From contig NC_091999.1 in the NCBI RefSeq assembly GCF_044704955.1, positions 10,726,001 through 10,790,000 of the forward strand: a stretch of 64,000 nucleotides of DNA, given 5' to 3'. Both the position numbers and the translations under genes were made by a program. Shown here in pieces: positions 3,261 through 59,414 of the stretch. The notes beneath the pieces are model-generated. The model saw only the letters and a program-made list of their open reading frames with translations, did not search any database and was not told the origin of the DNA. The stretch comes from Pristiophorus japonicus (Eukaryota). Position 1 is the first letter of the stretch; every line of letters begins with the position of its first letter.

Positions 3261-4069
3261 CGAAAATAATTTCGGTATCTTAATCGATAAAAGAGAGAAA
3301 TATACGGTTGTCGCTAGAAAGGTTGGCGAGGTGCGTATGTGTGAACATTTCTCCCAGAGTACAGCGGGTCGTGTGTCATAGATAGTGGCTTTATCTCTGC
3401 CGGTGTGAACTGTGGGATAGCCGCAGCTCTCCATTGCCTGGACATCAACCAAGCAAACCCGGCAAAAGAAACATTTTTGCCGTGAGAAAAGCAATTCTTT
3501 ACACAGAAGCAGCTGATACTGTGCAATATCTACACGAGTTATTTTAATAGGTAAGTTCGATATGAGTCTCGAAAGAGGAGTTTAAAGGGTGTGAGGAGCG
3601 AGAAGGGAATTTCAGACTGGATGGACTTATTCACTCAATGAAACTTACCGAACCCGCTCTCAGTGGAAACAGGACAGCCAAATAAGATGAGACTAGAGTG
3701 GAGGACGGCCCCGGAAAGCGGGTGTGGGGGAAGAGGGATTTGTGCAAAGACATAATTTAATCCTCATCTGCACCTATTCCCCAACAATTCCTTCCACTCC
3801 CTATTTAAGAGTCGTTAATGTTTTCCTCCCTTAGACAACTGTCCTAATAAACCACAGGACACATCATGCCAGAACTCCAGCAGTTTAGAAGAAAAGGAGT
3901 GCCGCACCAGCAAAAAAGCAGGATGGTACTCAGGTCTGATTAGAAATTTGTGGAGATGTTCTCCTCCCCAGGAGGAGCCTCAGGAATCCGATGAGGCGGC
4001 AAAGGACACGCAGTGAAACTTCAGCGAAACAAGGTGCGAAGGTCTGAGAGACAATGGTGGGAAAGCAGA

Positions 4070-5365
4070 GACAGCGTCTAGAGTAATACAAACAGAGACA
4101 GGGTCCAGTGCATTAATTACTGAGACTGCGTCTAGTGCAATACAAACAAAGACAGGCTCTAGTGCAATATAAACAGAGACAGGGTCTCATGTAATATAAA
4201 CAGAGACAGCGTCTAGTGTAATATCAACAGAGACAGGGTCTAGTGTAATATAAACAGAGACAGGTTCTCGTGTAGTTGAAACAGAGCCAGGGTCTACTGC
4301 AGTAGTAACTGCGACTGGGTCTAGTGCAATACAAACAAAGATAGCGTCTAGTGTAATACAAACGGAGACAGGGCCCAGTGCATTAATTACTGAGACTGTG
4401 TCCAGTGCAATACAAACAAAGACAGGCTCTAGTGTAATATAAACAGAGACAGGGTCGAGTGTAACATAAACAGAGACAGGTCGACTATAATACAAACAGA
4501 GGCACGGTCTAGTGCATTAATAGCTGAGACAAGGTCCAGTGTAATATAAACAGAGATAGGGACTGGTGCAGCGATAACTGAGCAGAGCCTAGTGCAAAAT
4601 CAACAGAGACAGGGTCTAGTGAAATATAAACAGATACAGCGTCTAGTGTAATATAAATAGAGACAGGGTCTAATGTAATATAAACAGAGACAGGGTCTAG
4701 TGCATTAGTAACTGAGACTGGGTCTCGTGCAATACAAACAGAGACAGGGTCTAGTGTAATCTAAACAGTGACAGAGCTTGGCGTAATGTAAACAGAGATA
4801 GGGTCTGGTGCAGCAATAACTGAGCAGGGCCTAGTGCAACATAATCAGAGACAGGGTCTTGTGTAATATAAACAGTGTCAGGGCTTGGTGTAATGTAAAC
4901 ACAGACAGGGTCTGGTGCAGCAATAACTGAGCAGGGCCTAGTGCAACATAAACAGAGGGAGGGTCTAGTATAATATAAAAAGAGACAGGGCCCACTGTAA
5001 TATAAACAGAAACAGGGTCGCGTGTACTACAATCAGAGACAGGATCTAGTGCATTAATAACTGAGACTGCGTCTTTAGTGTAATATAAACAGAGATTGGG
5101 TCTGTTGCAGAAATAACTGAGGGGGGCCTTGTGGAACATAAAGAGCGACGCGGTCTAGTGTAATATCAACAGTGACAGGCTTTGGCGTAATGTAAACAGA
5201 GACACGGTCGAATGCTGTAATAACTGAGATAGGACCTGATTTATTATAAACAGAGCCAGGGCCTCGTGTAATATAAACGGAGACTTGGTCTAGTGTGACG
5301 TAAACAGATATAGGGTCTGGGGTAATATAAACTGTGACAGGGTCCAATGTACGACAAAGAGAGAC
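4070..5365. repeat. 27-bp minisatellite (GGGTCTAGTGTAATATAAACAGAGACA and variants), roughly 45-50 units
   Basis: Visible tandem periodicity; yields repetitive 9-aa spurious ORFs (TLDPVSVYI). Confidence 0.9.
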
Positions 5366-5724
5366 GTGGCAACTTCAACTTAAATCTTGGTGATTCCTTT
5401 GTTTATTTTTAATACCAAGACACAACTGATGAAAGAAGCTCCGTCAAAACAACATGAAAACGCACACATTCCAATTCTGTAGAACAGATGCAGATACAGG
5501 GGGTGTGGATCCGTCTCATGATTCCTACTTAATGACCAAACGTTTGAATCTTGCTGTGAATGCTGCCATTTAAAATATGTCACTGAGCTTTAGTGATATT
5601 TTATAAATTATAAATGATACTATCAATGGAGCACCTTGTTGTGTTGAAGCTAGAGATTTAGGCAAATTGGAACACGTCAGGGAGAGCGTACGGAATACAG
5701 TGACAGACACATACACAGCGTATT

Positions 5725-8259: not shown

Positions 8260-8692
8260 ATGTGCTCCCCATGTTTGTTCCTGATAATAATGTTCGTGCT
8301 GCCCGGTGAGATACGTTCAACTGGCCAGTTTGAATTCGGTTAGGTTATATTCACGCGCAGAAGTTTTGATACGTTCTCTGATTTGTTGCAGGAATCAATG
8401 GCGAAGATAAGGTGCTCCAGGATCCGCCTGAATTATCGGTGCAGGAAGGACAGAACATAATACTGAGCTGCAGTTACTCGAAATCTGGTTCAACTCTGTT
8501 CTGGTACATCCAGTATTCCGGAGAAGCTCCGAGATATTTACTGAAGAGATATAGCTCAGAAGACGGAGACACATCTCCAGGTTTACCAGACAGGTTCTCT
8601 GCTGATCTGAACACAATAAATAAAGCGGTTCCTTTAAATATCACAGGGTCGCTTGTCTCCGATGCTGCCGTGTATTTCTGTGCCATGCAGCC
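8260..8692 (+). CDS. TCR alpha/delta V segment, apparently functional (leader 8260-8305, V exon 8392-8692)
   Basis: Leader MCSPCLFLIIMFVLP-G|gtgag; acceptor ttgcag|; V exon GINGEDKVLQDPPELSV..LSCSYS..LFWYIQY..DRFSA..DAAVYFCAMQP; both Cys and the Trp present. Confidence 0.92.
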
Positions 8693-8732
8693 CACAGTGC
8701 TGCAGAGAGACAGCGGACCCCGGACAAAAACG
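8693..8732 (+). other. Recombination signal sequence CACAGTG-24bp-ACAAAAACG
   Basis: Heptamer 8693-8699, nonamer 8724-8732. Confidence 0.9.
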
Positions 8733-8753
8733 GATACTCAAAATATCAGTCAG

Positions 8754-8772
8754 TGCTCACCAGAGGGCGCTC
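8754..8772 (+). promoter_or_regulatory. RSS-associated CTCF-binding element
   Basis: TGCTCACCAGAGGGCGCTC vs CTCF core TGGCCACCAGGGGGCGCTA; 21 bp after the nonamer. Confidence 0.75.
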
Positions 8773-9969
8773 TTACACTGATAAACAGAAGCGAAAATTT
8801 GGACTCCACAGTGAAAATCACAGGGACCTTCTTAAAAGGGTGACAAAACACAACTCTGAACAAGAACAGGTGATATCTACTTGTAGAATTTTATTAATTG
8901 ATTTGATCTCGAGTGTTTACTAAAAATGTACTTGATACATGCATTTGGTTCGCATTAATTTACCCTTTATCTTTTGATGCTCTTTTGGTACGTGCCTCAG
9001 TTTACACATCTCCCCTGTTAGTTTCCAGGACCCAGTGTTCGCGGCCTGTAGACAATGTTTATTTGATCAGAATGTGTTGCTGGATCGGAGGCTTTTTATA
9101 CCCAATCAACAGATTTCACAAGGTCGTGACTGTGCTCTTTAAAACAACCCCAAGCACAGAATTCCCCAATGCCCAACGTTTTTCAGAAAGTCACTTCAAT
9201 TCTGGAATGTTTTCTGTCACCATTAACAATCGTGCAGCTTGCGGTTTGCAACAAACAGACAAGGGGATCTCCGCAGCTTCCGATTTGCAACACACAGACA
9301 AGGGGCTCGTTCTCACTCCCTGTCTCAACAATTTTAACCATTCCCCTCTTAAGTCACTGACTGTGGCCCAGTTCAGGGTGTTTCCATTCAGTGCTAACCA
9401 ACTCTCCACCTACCGGCCTGACAGCACCACTTGGGACACATGGAAGTGAGATGAGAGCTTCCTGAGACATGACAGCAAATTATTGACGGTGGGGATTAGA
9501 ACGGCTGTCTCCAAACATCCAAAACACATTTTAGAGAGTGGAGAGCGTCAATTTGGCTACCCTGCATCTGGCTTACGTGGAGAGTTTCTGACAAATAATT
9601 GTAGACCAAACACATTTCATATTTTTTCTCTCTTCCGCAGTGCAGAGATCTTGAGGGTCGTAGGGCTGGAGGAGGGCCCAGAGATAGAGAGGAGCGGGGA
9701 TTTGCAAAAATGAATGTAAATTTTAATGACGAGGCTTTGTCGGACTAGGAGCCAATGTAGGTCAGCGATCACAGATGTGATGGGTGATGGAACTTGGCAC
9801 GAGTTTTGATACGGGCAGCAGAGTTTTGGATGAGCTAAAGTTTACTGCGTGTGCACGCGGGGAGGCTGGCCAGTAGGGCACTGGAATAGACGAGTTCAGA
9901 GGTAGCAAACGCATGGATGGGGTTTGACTGTAAGATAAGCTGAAGTAAGGACGGAGTGAAAATGCCCAG

Positions 9970-23891: not shown

Positions 23892-23910
23892 GGGCGCCCT
23901 CTGGTGAGCA
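23892..23910 (-). promoter_or_regulatory. RSS-associated CTCF-binding element
   Basis: Reverse complement TGCTCACCAGAGGGCGCCC, 23 bp beyond the nonamer. Confidence 0.75.
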
Positions 23911-23933: not shown

Positions 23934-24406
23934 AGTTTTTGTACGGGGTCTGCTATATCTCTGCAGTAGTGTGGGCTGCATGGCACAGAAATACACGGCG
24001 GCATCGGAGACAAGCGTCCCAGCGATATTTAAACGAACCGTTTTATTCATTTTGTTCATATCAGCAGAGAACCTGTCTGGGAAACCTGGAGATTTGTCTC
24101 CGCCTTCTGAGCTATATCTCGTCAGTAAATATCTCGGAGCTTCCCCTGGATATTGTATGTACCAGAACAGAGTCAAACCAGCTCTCGAGTAACTGCAGCT
24201 CAGTATTATGTTCTGTCCTTCCTCAACCGTTAATTCAGACGGATCCTGGAGCACCTTATCTTCACCATTGACTTCTGTAACAAATCAGAGAATGTATCAA
24301 AACTTCTGCGCGTGAATATAACTCATGGATCTCAAGCTTGCCATTTAAACGTGGACTCACTGGGCAGCACGAACATTATTATTAGGCAGAAACATGGGGA
24401 GTACAT
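23934..24406 (-). CDS. TCR alpha/delta V segment, apparently functional (leader 24406-24361, exon 24274-23974, RSS 23973-23934); inverted duplicate of 8260
   Basis: MYSPCFCLIIMFVLP|gtgagt; KVNGEDKVLQDPSELTV..LSCSYS..LFWYIQYPG..DAAVYFCAMQP; CACACTA-24-ACAAAAACT. Confidence 0.9.
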
Positions 24407-43309: not shown

Positions 43310-43845
43310 GCTTAACTTACCCCGTGCTGTGCTTGCCCTGGGAGTCTTTATTTCGATAGTACAGAGGGTGGTGGGCGGGGGACGGGGGGGAATGGTGGGG
43401 AGTGGTTACTGTGTATCTAACCCGTGCTGTACATGCCCTGGGAGTGTTTGATGGGACAGTGTAGAGGCAGGTTTACTCTATATCTAACACGGGCTGTACC
43501 TGCCCGGGGAGTGTTTGAAGGGACAGTGTTGAGGGAGATTTATCTGAATCAAAAGCCTGCTGTACCTGCCCTGCGAGTATTTGATGACAGAGTGCAGAGG
43601 GAACTTTACTGTGCATCTAACTCGTGCTTTACCTGTCCCGGGAGTTTTTGATCGGACAGTGTAGAGAGAGCTCCATTCTGTATGTAACTTGTGCTTCACC
43701 TGCCCTGGGAGTGTTTGAGTGGCCAATGAAGTGGGAGCTTTACTCTGTATCTAATCTGTGCTGTACCTGTCCTGGGAGTGTTTGATGGGACAGTGTAAAT
43801 TGAGCGTTACTATCTATCTAACCCATGTTGTTCCTGTGTGGGATT
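43310..43845. repeat. ~67-bp minisatellite (CTGTACCTGCCCTGGGAGTGTTTGATGGGACAGTGTAGAGGGAGCTTTACTCTGTATCTAACCCGTG)
   Basis: About 7 tandem units; resembles a repeat common in shark genomes. Confidence 0.85.
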
Positions 43846-44144
43846 GTTTTATATAAAATGTTGATGAACTTGATGAGGAATTTATGTTGATTTTGTTTTG
43901 ATTCAACTTTCAAATTAATCGTCAAGACCGAAACATTAATCACCTTTGATTCATGCAGTTACTGTGCTTGGTCTCCGTATTGGATGATTAGGAATGTCGA
44001 ATCACTTCCATTTTTACGAAATTAACATTTCATAGTCATCAATAGTGATATTATTGACGTGAAGTCTATCTAGTTTATGCAAATGAACGCGTATTTGTGT
44101 TGGTGACCTGAGCACAGTAAATCACTAAAACATGACATTTCAGA

Positions 44145-44614: not shown

Positions 44615-44945
44615 TCTTACACTAGGCCCTGTATCAGCTTTTACTGCACAAGACATGTATCTATTTATATTACACAAATCCCTGTCTCAGTTGTTCCTCT
44701 GCTAGACCATGTTTCTATTTATATTACATTAGATCCTGTCGCTGTTTATATGACACGAGGCCATGTCTCTGTTTATATTCCACTGACAGTGTCTCAGTTA
44801 TTACTGTACACGACTACGTCTCTCTTTATATTACATTGGATCCTGTCGCTGTTTATATTACGCCAGACCCTATATCTGTTCACATCACATTGGACCAAGT
44901 CTCTATTTATATTACACGAGGCCCTATCTCTGTTGATATTGAAAT
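44615..44945. repeat. Inverted partial copy of the 27-bp minisatellite
   Basis: TGTCTCTGTTTATATTACAC.. units. Confidence 0.8.
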
Positions 44946-45699
44946 AGGTCCTACACCTCACCAACTTTTCCAGCGACAACTGTATATTTTTCGCTTTTAG
45001 CGATTAAGATACTGAAATTATGTTCGTGTAAATTGACATGTAAATTTCAATAGAGCCATTTTATGTAAATGAACGGAAGCCATTCACAACGTGTTATGTC
45101 ACACAAACATGGCGGACTGTACGTCACAAAATGTTGCCCGCTGGTGTGCCCAGCATTGGATGACGCCACAATCCTTTTCCACGTTACAGCACCATGATTG
45201 GCTGTTTCTCCCATTGATTCAGGGTAAGGGGTCACGGGCCGTTTGTTGCAGAGCATAGAGTCCCATTTAGTCAGGTCTGTGACCCCTGACGAAGGTCTGT
45301 GACCACGGGATATCAGCTCTTCAAAGTGCCTAGCGCCGCCCGAGTTGTTTCTGTTAGATTTGATACTTGATGGGAATTTGAATAAAATAGGAATGGGAAG
45401 AAAATTAAATTTAATTCTTTAAGTATTCCATCATTCAGTATGTTGCTTAACAGCAAATATTCATATTGGCTAATAATCGACATGTGAAGTAGGATCATTT
45501 ATCTAAAGTCGAACATGTTATTGTAAATGTAATTTTGAAAATGGAGACAATATTGATTTTATTTATTTCTTGATCCCAGCATGATAAACAGTAAGAATAT
45601 AGCAGCAGGTAATTCATCCGCTCAAGCCTTTCCATCATTCTAAAAATCTACTGCCAATTTCTGGCAGCAAACAGAAATAAATTCCATTGCCTCTTACAG

Positions 45700-49750: not shown

Positions 49751-49769
49751 GAGCGCCCTCTGGTGAGCA
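49751..49769 (-). promoter_or_regulatory. RSS-associated CTCF-binding element
   Basis: Reverse complement TGCTCACCAGAGGGCGCTC, 21 bp beyond the nonamer. Confidence 0.75.
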
Positions 49770-49790
49770 CTGACTGGAATTCTCAGTGTG

Positions 49791-50276
49791 GGTTTTTGAC
49801 GGGCTCTGCCATATATCTGCACCAGTGTGGGGCTCATGGCACAGAAATACACGGCGGTGTCTGAGATCAAGGCCTTGCTGATCGTTAGCTCGGTAATCTT
49901 AGTCGTTTTATGAAACACAGAAGAGAATCGGTCAGTGAAGTCGGGGTTTCGATTTACTGTCGTTCCAAAAAGGTAAAACACGTACTGAGGGTTCTGCCCG
50001 TGGTGCTGACTGTACCAGAACACAGAAGGGTTAGCATAGCTGGTTTTCAAGGTGCAGTTTATTGTCACATTCCTTTCCTCTTCAACCATCATTTCGAGAA
50101 CCGACTGTTCCACTGTGTCTTGTTGGCTCCATTCTAAAGAAAAATTATAGTAATTGTCATCATCACATTATCATATTACCAATAATAACATCAGGGGCAG
50201 AATTATTATTTATTCAAAGGAAATACTGACTGAGAAGTGATATAATGATGAAGAGCGGTGCGAGACGGTTCCACAT
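49791..50276 (-). CDS. TCR alpha/delta V segment, apparently functional (leader 50276-50231, exon 50133-49830, RSS 49829-49791)
   Basis: MWNRLAPLFIIISLL|gtcagt; KWSQQDTVEQSVLEMMVEEERNVTINCTLK..VFWYSQ..DTAVYFCAMSP; CACACTG-23-TCAAAAACC. Confidence 0.9.
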
Positions 50277-51833: not shown

Positions 51834-52376
51834 ATGCGGAACCGCCTCACAGCACTCCTCATCGTTATATCACTTCTCAGTAAGTCTTTCCTTGTCATTA
51901 AAAATCCATTTTCATCTGGACTGCTGTAACTCAGCTGTTATTATTGGTAAAATGATGTTGATGATTATGTTGATTGGGATTATGGTGATGCTGATGATGA
52001 AGATGGTGATGATTACAATTATTTTATGTTAGAATGGAGCCACGAAGACACAATGGAACAGCTGGTCCCGGAAATGACAATTGAAGAGGAAAGTAATGTC
52101 ACACTAACCTGCAATTTGAAAACAGGCGATACTGCCCCTTATGTGTACTGGTACAGTCAGCACCCCGGGAAGCAGCCATAGTACGTGCTTCACCTTATCG
52201 GAGGGGATGTACACAGGAACACTGACATCACTGATGGATTCTTCTCGACATTTACTAAAATTACCAAGATTACTGTGCTCACGATTGGCAAAGCCCTGAT
52301 CTCCGACACCGCCGTGTATTTCTGTGCGATTGAACCCACACAGCTGCAGAGTTATTGTGGATCCCTAACATAAACT
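51834..52376 (+). pseudogene. TCR V with a single TAG (52179-52181); family of 50276
   Basis: Leader MRNRLTALLIVISLL|gtaagt; exon from 52033 ..LTCNLK..VYWYSQHPGKQP*YV..DTAVYFCAIEP; CACACAG-24-ACATAAACT. Confidence 0.9.
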
Positions 52377-52397
52377 CACGCTGAGAGTTCCAGTTGC

Positions 52398-52416
52398 TGC
52401 GAACCAGAGGGCGCTC
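52398..52416 (+). promoter_or_regulatory. RSS-associated CTCF-binding element
   Basis: TGCGAACCAGAGGGCGCTC, 21 bp beyond the nonamer. Confidence 0.68.
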
Positions 52417-58938: not shown

Positions 58939-59414
58939 ATGTACTCCCCACGATCCTTATTGATAATAATGGTCGTAATGCCCGGTGAGTCTATGTTTAA
59001 ATGATCAGTGTATGATTCATGCTTTAAATTCACTCCCAGACTTAGGACGCATTCTGTATTTTGTAACAGGAATGAATGGCGAAGATTCAGTGTCACAGGA
59101 TCCGTCAGAATTAACGGTTCAGGAAGGACAGGCCATAATACTCAACTGCAGTTACTCCACATCCGAACCTATCCTTACCTCTTCTGGTATATCCATCATC
59201 CCGGGAAAATTCCGAGATATTTACTGAAGAGAGACGGCAAGCGGCAGCGGGATCAGTCTCCACATCTTCCAGACCGGATCTCTGCTGATTGGGACCAAGA
59301 CAAGAAATCGGTTTCATTAAATGTCTCCGGGTCTTTCCTCTCTGAATCCGCCGTATATTAATGTGTGCTGCGCCCCACACTGTTACAGAGATACAGTCAG
59401 CTCGTACAAAAAAA
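58939..59414 (+). pseudogene. TCR V pseudogene (family of 8260); frameshift + TAA; 23-RSS, no CTCF cassette
   Basis: Leader MYSPRSLLIIMVVMP|gtgagt; GMNGEDSVSQDPSELTVQEG..LNCSYS / LFWYIH..ESAVY*CVLRP; CACACTG(59376)-23-ACAAAAAAA. Confidence 0.9.

What the first reader, a model, noticed from the sequence alone, without database searches (positions are those of the whole stretch)
8665..8875. RSS+CBE 3' cassette apparently swapped between V families (chimeric V genes)
Seen: 8260 and 24406 belong by leader, FR1 and FR2 to the family of 58939. From GCCGTGTATTTCTGTGCCATG in FR3 onward they instead match the different 50276/51834 family, through the RSS, the CBE and ~100 bp of flank (..CTGATAAACAGAAGC..CACAGGGAC.TTCTTAAAAG..). 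Family-mate 58939 has a different FR3 end, an ordinary 23-RSS, no CBE, and is a pseudogene. Inference: recombination or gene conversion in FR3 moved a portable RSS+CBE module onto another V family. The recipients remain intact.
Basis: partly seen in the sequence, partly recalled or inferred. Interest (0 to 1): 0.7.

Follow-up and report, generated by a model that had tools for sequence, protein, structure and literature searches.

The report
Ancient chimeric shark TCR V family
In this shark-like T-cell-receptor alpha/delta locus, 27 V genes join the front of one gene family to the tail of a very different one (last codons, a cutting signal with an unusual 24-base spacer, and a predicted CTCF site), likely through a single very old crossover followed by ordinary duplication rather than a module that keeps moving.

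Summary
Observation confirmed, interpretation partly. The window lies in a TCR alpha/delta V array. Across 1.66 Mb, the family of 8260/24406/58939 shares promoter, leader, intron and exon body, but 27 members end like the 50276/51834 family (47 of 47) and 22 end like 58939. The switch maps 38-27 bases before the heptamer (8655-8666). Quartet sites separate the families in the exon body (about 60 versus 3-4) and not in the tail (1-3 each), so recombination is needed. One event suffices: the tail then follows each subfamily and no recent swap is seen. Skate and smooth-hound genes have the same chimeric protein end, so the event is likely very old. The 58939-type end looks ancestral, not a simple loss. 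'Portable module' is not shown. CTCF binding, expression and rearrangement are untested. The scan noted this shared tail and motif before on other DNA of this locus.

The parts
8260..8305 (+). Leader exon of chimeric V gene 8260 (family A, subfamily A1); 58939-type
   Evidence: 46-nt leader, GT donor; alignment
8392..8692 (+). V exon of 8260, open frame ending YFCAMQ; inverted relative to the J-alpha segments
   Evidence: J orientation
8655..8666 (+). Inferred crossover interval in FR3 (last 58939-type site at -38, first 50276-type site at -27 from the heptamer)
   Evidence: family-level informative sites; single-gene interval 8649-8672
8693..8732 (+). RSS of 8260: heptamer 8693-8699, 24-bp spacer, nonamer 8724-8732
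8757..8770 (+). Predicted CTCF-binding element, 24 bases after the nonamer
   Evidence: motif match; binding untested
8771..8890 (+). 3' flank shared with the 50276/51834 family; fades at about +150 to +200 with no sharp border
23974..24406 (-). Chimeric V gene 24406 (A1), leader and exon open; same orientation as J-alpha
23934..23973 (-). RSS of 24406, 24-bp spacer, heptamer CACACTA
23894..23907 (-). Predicted CTCF-binding element of 24406
49753..50276 (-). V gene 50276 (family B, subfamily B1), open; spacer 23 bp in this copy; CTCF motif 49753-49766; likely donor-type tail
51834..52414 (+). V pseudogene 51834 (B2), in-frame stop in FR2, 24-bp spacer, CTCF motif 52401-52414
58939..59414 (+). 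V pseudogene 58939 (family C): same 5' family as 8260, YYCAL-type end, 23-bp spacer, no CTCF motif

Best explanation
8260, 24406 and 25 other V genes of this TCR alpha/delta locus carry a 58939-type promoter, leader and exon body joined in FR3 to a 50276-type tail, likely because one ancient unequal crossover in the conserved stretch before the D-x-A-V-Y motif made a hybrid gene that was then multiplied by ordinary duplication. Shown: the mosaic, its 12-base breakpoint interval, the copy numbers, and the tight link of a 24-bp spacer with a CTCF motif at +64. Inferred: one event; direction from the 50276 family onto the 58939-type body; an age before the shark-skate split. Predicted by analogy with mouse proximal VH genes: CTCF bound 24 bases behind the nonamer stalls loop extrusion or opens the signal, raising use of a signal that the extra spacer base would weaken.
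For: Locus census: 5' family splits 27 cassette / 22 plain, family B 47 of 47 cassette. Breakpoint -38/-27. 5' tree holds A+C together (95/97) apart from B (100/100); tail tree mixes A and B subfamilies in a star. Quartet sites: exon body about 60 for A|B against 3-4; tail 0.5-3 for every split. Four-fold sites A1-B1 0.42 in the body, 0.88 in the last nine codons. The tail is not more constrained than the exon between subfamilies (A1-A2 0.63 tail vs 0.72 exon; B1-B2 0.75 vs 0.74) yet A1-B1 is 0.78 vs 0.47. One origin is not rejected: A is one side of a branch against C (78/54); AU for A as a clade in the tail tree p 0.14 and 0.51; with other species p 0.36 and 0.43. Direction: the 58939-type end (YYCAL, 23 bp) is shared with most other families, bamboo-shark relatives and unnamed relatives about 50% identical; its post-nonamer flank matches no other family. 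Age: little skate P0111 and Mustelus P0025 have an A-type body with a CAME end and group with A (94/75).
Against: Support for A as one lineage is weak (78/54; 94/75), and AU tests also fail to reject A1+B1 as a clade (p 0.40, 0.30). A1 is closer to B1 in the tail (0.78) than to A2 or A3 (0.63, 0.72), and quartets with A2 lean to A1+B1 (83%), which may mean a second transfer. An unnamed cassette-type protein P0145 fell with bamboo-shark plain-type genes (87/71). The C spacer is 0.60 alike to both A and B, so an origin of the tail near the A/C stem is not excluded. Spacer length read through gene models is 23 in skate A, P0145 and bamboo-shark B, 22 in Mustelus, and 24 only in one unnamed protein. 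30 of 74 cassette genes are inverted relative to J and are not less often intact (14/30 vs 26/44, p 0.35), which fits a linear scanning role poorly. CTCF binding is motif-only.
Confidence: 0.68

Rival explanations
1. The tail was transferred more than once (repeated gene conversion), for example re-imported into the A1 stem from a B1-like donor, or homogenised across both families within this lineage, which would also explain why every subfamily here has 24 bp while skate and bamboo-shark genes read as 23.
For: A1-B1 is the closest inter-subfamily pair in the tail; A1 stem is 0.13-0.14 in 5' trees and about 0.05 in the tail tree; 83% quartet lean; P0145 placement; 5'-truncated B fragments with an intact tail exist as possible donors.
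Against: Each subfamily is one side of a branch in the tail tree, with the minimum number of changes; one origin is not rejected in four AU tests; all A subfamilies start matching B at the same place, median -37 to -44; no recent family-crossing copy among 298 ends.
Confidence: 0.17
2. Reverse direction: the tail arose in the A/C lineage, family B captured it, and the 58939 type later replaced its own end from a donor that no longer exists.
For: Root of the tail tree is unknown; no B gene with another tail survives to show B's history; C spacer is modestly similar to the cassette spacer (0.60).
Against: Needs two events and a vanished donor; the C end has the states shared with outgroup families and fish relatives; the A/C internal branch is about 0.01, too short for the many FR3-end and spacer differences to arise in place.
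Confidence: 0.11
3. No recombination: the tail is ancestral to A, B and C, kept by strong selection, and lost in C.
For: B and A+C appear as sisters in the protein tree (80/89, weak); FR3 end and RSS are under known constraint (PMC10322711 section 7).
Against: Linker and flank diverge between subfamilies as fast as the exon; promoter and intron of A and B do not align at all while their 3' flank does; the long A-B branch leaves about 60 sites in the body and none in the tail.
Confidence: 0.04

Closest known systems
RSS-associated CTCF-binding elements of mouse/human proximal IGH V genes (PMC6746451, passages; VH81X CBE work seen only through review PMC7930373, passages)
   Same: CTCF motif at a fixed distance behind the nonamer, same strand as the V gene, restricted to particular V clades, kept better in intact genes (34/40 vs 21/34).
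   Different: TCR alpha/delta locus of a cartilaginous fish; 24 bases from the nonamer rather than 17-19 (or 48); linked to a 24-bp spacer; spread through the array in both orientations (35 minus, 29 plus strict sites) instead of over 98% one way; carried across families by recombination.
Mouse Tcra/Tcrd V-region CTCF sites (PMC5859386, passages)
   Same: Same locus type, many V-linked CTCF sites.
   Different: Mouse sites lie mostly upstream of V promoters or between genes; here they lie 3' of the RSS.
Birth-and-death V-gene arrays with unequal crossover and germline gene conversion (general knowledge, recalled; no call)
   Same: Hybrid genes formed at a conserved framework stretch, then expanded by duplication.
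   Different: Parents are only about 30% identical in protein and the piece exchanged is mostly regulatory.
Elasmobranch TCR alpha/delta translocon linked to IgH clusters (PMC12227049, abstract and section 6)
   Same: Translocon V-D-J-C beside many C1-set clusters on the same contig; TCR-type V exons dispersed further along it.
   Different: The parts read do not treat RSS spacers, CTCF motifs or chimeric V families.

Membership tests
TCR alpha/delta V gene | Leader exon, intron, V-set exon with Cys23, Trp41, Cys104 and open frame | tested here: met
   (8260, 24406, 50276)
TCR alpha/delta V gene | Linked J-alpha array with 12-bp RSS, D-delta/J-delta and C-alpha | tested here: met
   22 J at C23:9.645-9.683 Mb, one J at 9.729 Mb, D with 12/23 signals at 9.737 Mb; weak PF09291 hit at 9.58 Mb (E 0.41); best named homologues are TRAV/TRDV
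TCR alpha/delta V gene | Fish V-alpha end: T8G9 and RSS at position 15 from Cys (PMC10322711) | tested here: met
   true of A, C and 50276
TCR alpha/delta V gene | 23-bp spacer RSS | tested here: not met
   24 bp in 61 of 66 good A/B signals; one base off, reported to reduce cleavage moderately to strongly (PMC7753069 passages)
TCR alpha/delta V gene | Rearranged and expressed | not testable with these tools
   no run could be laid on the gene
RSS-associated CBE (IGH type) | CTCF consensus at fixed distance 3' of nonamer, V-gene strand | tested here: met
   61 strict sites at +62 to +66; 63 of 68 good 24-bp signals vs 3 of 97 good 23-bp signals, lenient match
RSS-associated CBE (IGH type) | Single orientation towards the recombination centre | tested here: not met
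   35 towards, 29 away
RSS-associated CBE (IGH type) | CTCF occupancy and effect on V usage | not testable with these tools
   needs ChIP and repertoire data
Portable (repeatedly moving) cassette | Defined 3' border | tested here: not met
   A-B homology ends at +95 to +200, as does A1-A2, A1-A3 and B1-B2 homology
Portable (repeatedly moving) cassette | More than one independent transfer | tested here: inconclusive
   AU tests reject neither one nor two events; weak lean to A1+B1

The most novel reading that the evidence does not exclude
The tail is a selected regulatory unit: a deliberately weakened 24-bp RSS whose use depends on the adjacent CTCF site, the 'weak signal plus impediment' design proposed for mouse Igh (PMC11153149, abstract), already present in shark TCR alpha. 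Capturing it changed how a V family is recruited and drove the chimera's success, possibly through more than one transfer.
Probability: 0.2. Interest if true: 0.75.

Novelty: new variant of a known kind. Interest (0 to 1): 0.45.

Why it matters
It shows that the cis-signals thought to set V-gene usage (RSS plus a CTCF site) can be moved between V families only 30% identical by one crossover in FR3, leaving the germline antigen-binding loops CDR1 and CDR2 untouched. It gives a natural experiment: A and C genes share promoter and body but differ in the tail, so their usage in thymus repertoires would test the CTCF site and the 24-bp spacer directly. About a quarter of the catalogued V ends keep a spacer that breaks the 23-bp rule. 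Without function data it remains an old, well-resolved hybrid in a duplicating array.

Tried and rejected
A single-protein homologue search at near length found nothing. A metagenome scan for the FR3-end/RSS pattern gave 0 matches. Supplements of PMC10322711 gave no V sequences in the 11 of 19 files searched; one file is a scan and seven were not searched, and they may hold bamboo-shark V usage. Group D looked like a third family carrying the tail but is 5'-truncated B fragments. The intact fraction of cassette families against all others (40/74 vs 44/224) was rejected as evidence because the test is tuned to A/B/C exon geometry (it scores 0 of 25 in family f3). The higher conservation of the CBE core than the linker (0.94 vs 0.835) is partly circular, since genes were picked for having the motif. 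A vs C intactness (18/27 vs 7/22, p 0.022) counts non-independent duplicates. The first genome pattern search had a gap one base short and was redone. No structure or complex prediction was run; neither bears on the question.

Full report
Setting. The window is G000:C23:10,726,001-10,790,000 of a 5.9-Gb genome. It holds at least 11 V exons on both strands. On the same contig lie 22 J segments at 9.645-9.683 Mb, one J at 9.729 Mb, a D with 12/23 signals at 9.737 Mb and a weak C-alpha domain hit at 9.58 Mb. J and C read on the minus strand, so minus-strand V genes join by deletion and plus-strand ones, such as 8260, by inversion. The closest named homologues are shark gene models and TRAV/TRDV proteins. 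I read this as a cartilaginous-fish TCR alpha/delta locus (inference; layout as in PMC12227049, abstract and section 6).

Observation. 8260 and 24406 match 58939 at 0.66-0.72 from promoter to FR3, and 50276/51834 near chance. From the last 27 exon bases to +150 they match 50276 at 0.79-0.96. Permutation of informative sites gives 9 and 1 of 1000.

Census. I tiled 1,664,000 of the 1,734,000 bases of C23:9,956,001-11,690,000. Of 384 V-like clusters, 298 reached the 3' end and were catalogued; 86 were dropped. Clustering 5' and 3' parts separately gave family A (58939-type front, cassette tail; 27 genes), C (same front, 58939-type tail; 22) and B (50276-type front; 47 of 47 cassette tail). No B front with a C tail was found. 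Family-level informative sites switch from C-like to B-like between -38 and -27 from the heptamer, window 8655-8666; a few B-like sites at -83 to -68 lie in a variable loop.

Recombination is required. The 5' tree unites A and C (95/97) apart from B (100/100). The tail tree is a star of A1, A2, A3, B1, B2. Quartets give about 60 sites for A|B in the body and 0.5-3 for any split in the tail. Four-fold sites between A1 and B1 are 0.42 in the body and 0.88 in the last nine codons, the latter on few independent sites. Constraint does not explain this: between subfamilies the tail diverges as fast as the exon, and A and B promoters and introns do not align.

One old event, not a moving module. A is one side of a branch against C over 600 bases, weakly (78/54). 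Each subfamily stays together in the tail tree and A as a clade is not rejected (p-AU 0.14, 0.51), but neither is A1+B1 (0.40, 0.30). All A subfamilies begin to match B at the same place, and the match ends at +95 to +200, where homology between subfamilies of one family also ends. So the 3' limit is decay, not a border. Against a single event: A1-B1 is the closest pair in the tail, one quartet leans 83% that way, and the unnamed P0145 fell outside A, though holding it with A is not rejected (p 0.36).

Direction and age. The C end (YYCAL, 23 bp) has the states of most other families, of bamboo-shark relatives P0020 and P0032 and of unnamed relatives about 50% identical to A. Its flank after the nonamer matches no other family. 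B-type genes of bamboo shark and horn shark end in YFCAM. The simplest history is B tail onto a C-type body. Little skate P0111 and Mustelus P0025 have an A-type body with a CAME end and group with A at 94/75 on 84 columns, so the hybrid likely predates the shark-skate split. P0145 reads through into codons that fit the CTCF motif at the same distance from the heptamer (back-translation, inference).

The tail. Of 190 V ends with a good RSS, 68 have a 24-bp spacer and 63 of these have the motif at +58 to +70; 3 of 97 with 23 bp, 2 of 19 with 22 bp and 0 of 6 with 25 bp do (lenient match); 108 ends with a poor RSS were set aside. By strict match, 64 of 232 motifs in the tiled DNA are RSS-linked, 61 at +62 to +66 and 3 at +81 in another family. 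In A and B, 61 of 66 good signals are 24 bp; in C 0 of 15. All 23 J signals found are 12 bp. An exact pattern search found 13 genome matches, 12 in this array and one at 66.96 Mb. Read-through of gene models suggests 23 bp in skate A, P0145 and bamboo-shark B, 22 in Mustelus and 24 in one unnamed B2-type protein, so whether 24 bp is ancestral is open.

Mechanism. Formation: unequal crossover in the short stretch before the conserved D-x-A-V-Y motif, where A-B identity is already 0.64-0.75, keeping frame and the T8G9/position-15 V-alpha end (PMC10322711, passages and section 7). Then duplication and inversion. Function, by analogy only: mouse proximal VH genes have a CBE 17-19 bases behind the nonamer (PMC6746451, passages), whose loss cuts usage (review PMC7930373, passages); Igh is proposed to use weaker RSSs modulated by such impediments (PMC11153149, abstract); a one-base spacer change lowers recombination (PMC7753069, passages). 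Mouse Tcra/d sites lie mostly upstream of promoters (PMC5859386, passages). In favour of function: the strict motif is in 34 of 40 intact and 21 of 34 broken A/B genes (p 0.033). Against simple scanning: 30 of 74 A/B genes are inverted and no less intact (p 0.35).

Literature. Searches (listings only) showed no paper on this chimera, on RSS-linked CTCF motifs or on 24-bp spacers in shark TCR alpha; subscription papers are not held. Nurse-shark passages (PMC5931798) do not treat RSSs. Earlier notes of this scan report the shared tail and the motif on other stretches of this locus; my reading was written before I saw them and they are not independent support. Their excerpts do not mention the 24-bp spacer.

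Verdict. Real, well resolved, probably one ancient hybrid. New variant of known kinds (array recombination; RSS-linked CBE). Interest 0.45.

Noticed in passing
G000:C23:11383917(-), 11407149(+), 11420270(+) (L152, L154, L113): Three pseudogenes join a 50276-family promoter/leader (-770 to -400) to an exon of another family (f6): a second chimera, with the join in or near the intron.
   Followed up: partly
G000:C23:10612627, 11175474, 11368434, 11437978: 5'-truncated B fragments (last ~120 exon bases plus tail) with RSS and CTCF motif kept, each about 1.6 kb behind a family-f2 gene.
   Followed up: partly
G000:C23:9962207, 10127450, 11477339, 11671395: Family f14 has its own CTCF motif at +81 from the heptamer with a 23-bp spacer and unrelated flank: a second, independent RSS-linked motif.
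   Followed up: partly
L173, L177-L180 (C23 19-67 Mb): Decayed copies of the 58939 family, some beside a 60910-type V, are dispersed far along the contig; one B-like tail with RSS and CTCF motif lies at 66.96 Mb.
   Followed up: partly
L166-L167 (C23:9687111 minus, 9690478 plus): Two CTCF motifs of opposite strand just upstream of the J-alpha array, a position like the mouse TEA site.
   Followed up: no
family f8, e.g. G000:C23:10404467: Ten V genes with a long 3' end (CKAQY...) and mostly 22-bp spacers.
   Followed up: no
L174-L176 (contig C645, 1.03-1.08 Mb): Broken A3-, B1- and B2-type V genes with the tail on a separate contig.
   Followed up: partly
window 4018-5390, 43339-43876, 44656-44946: Minisatellites of 27-bp and 67-bp period.
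   Followed up: no
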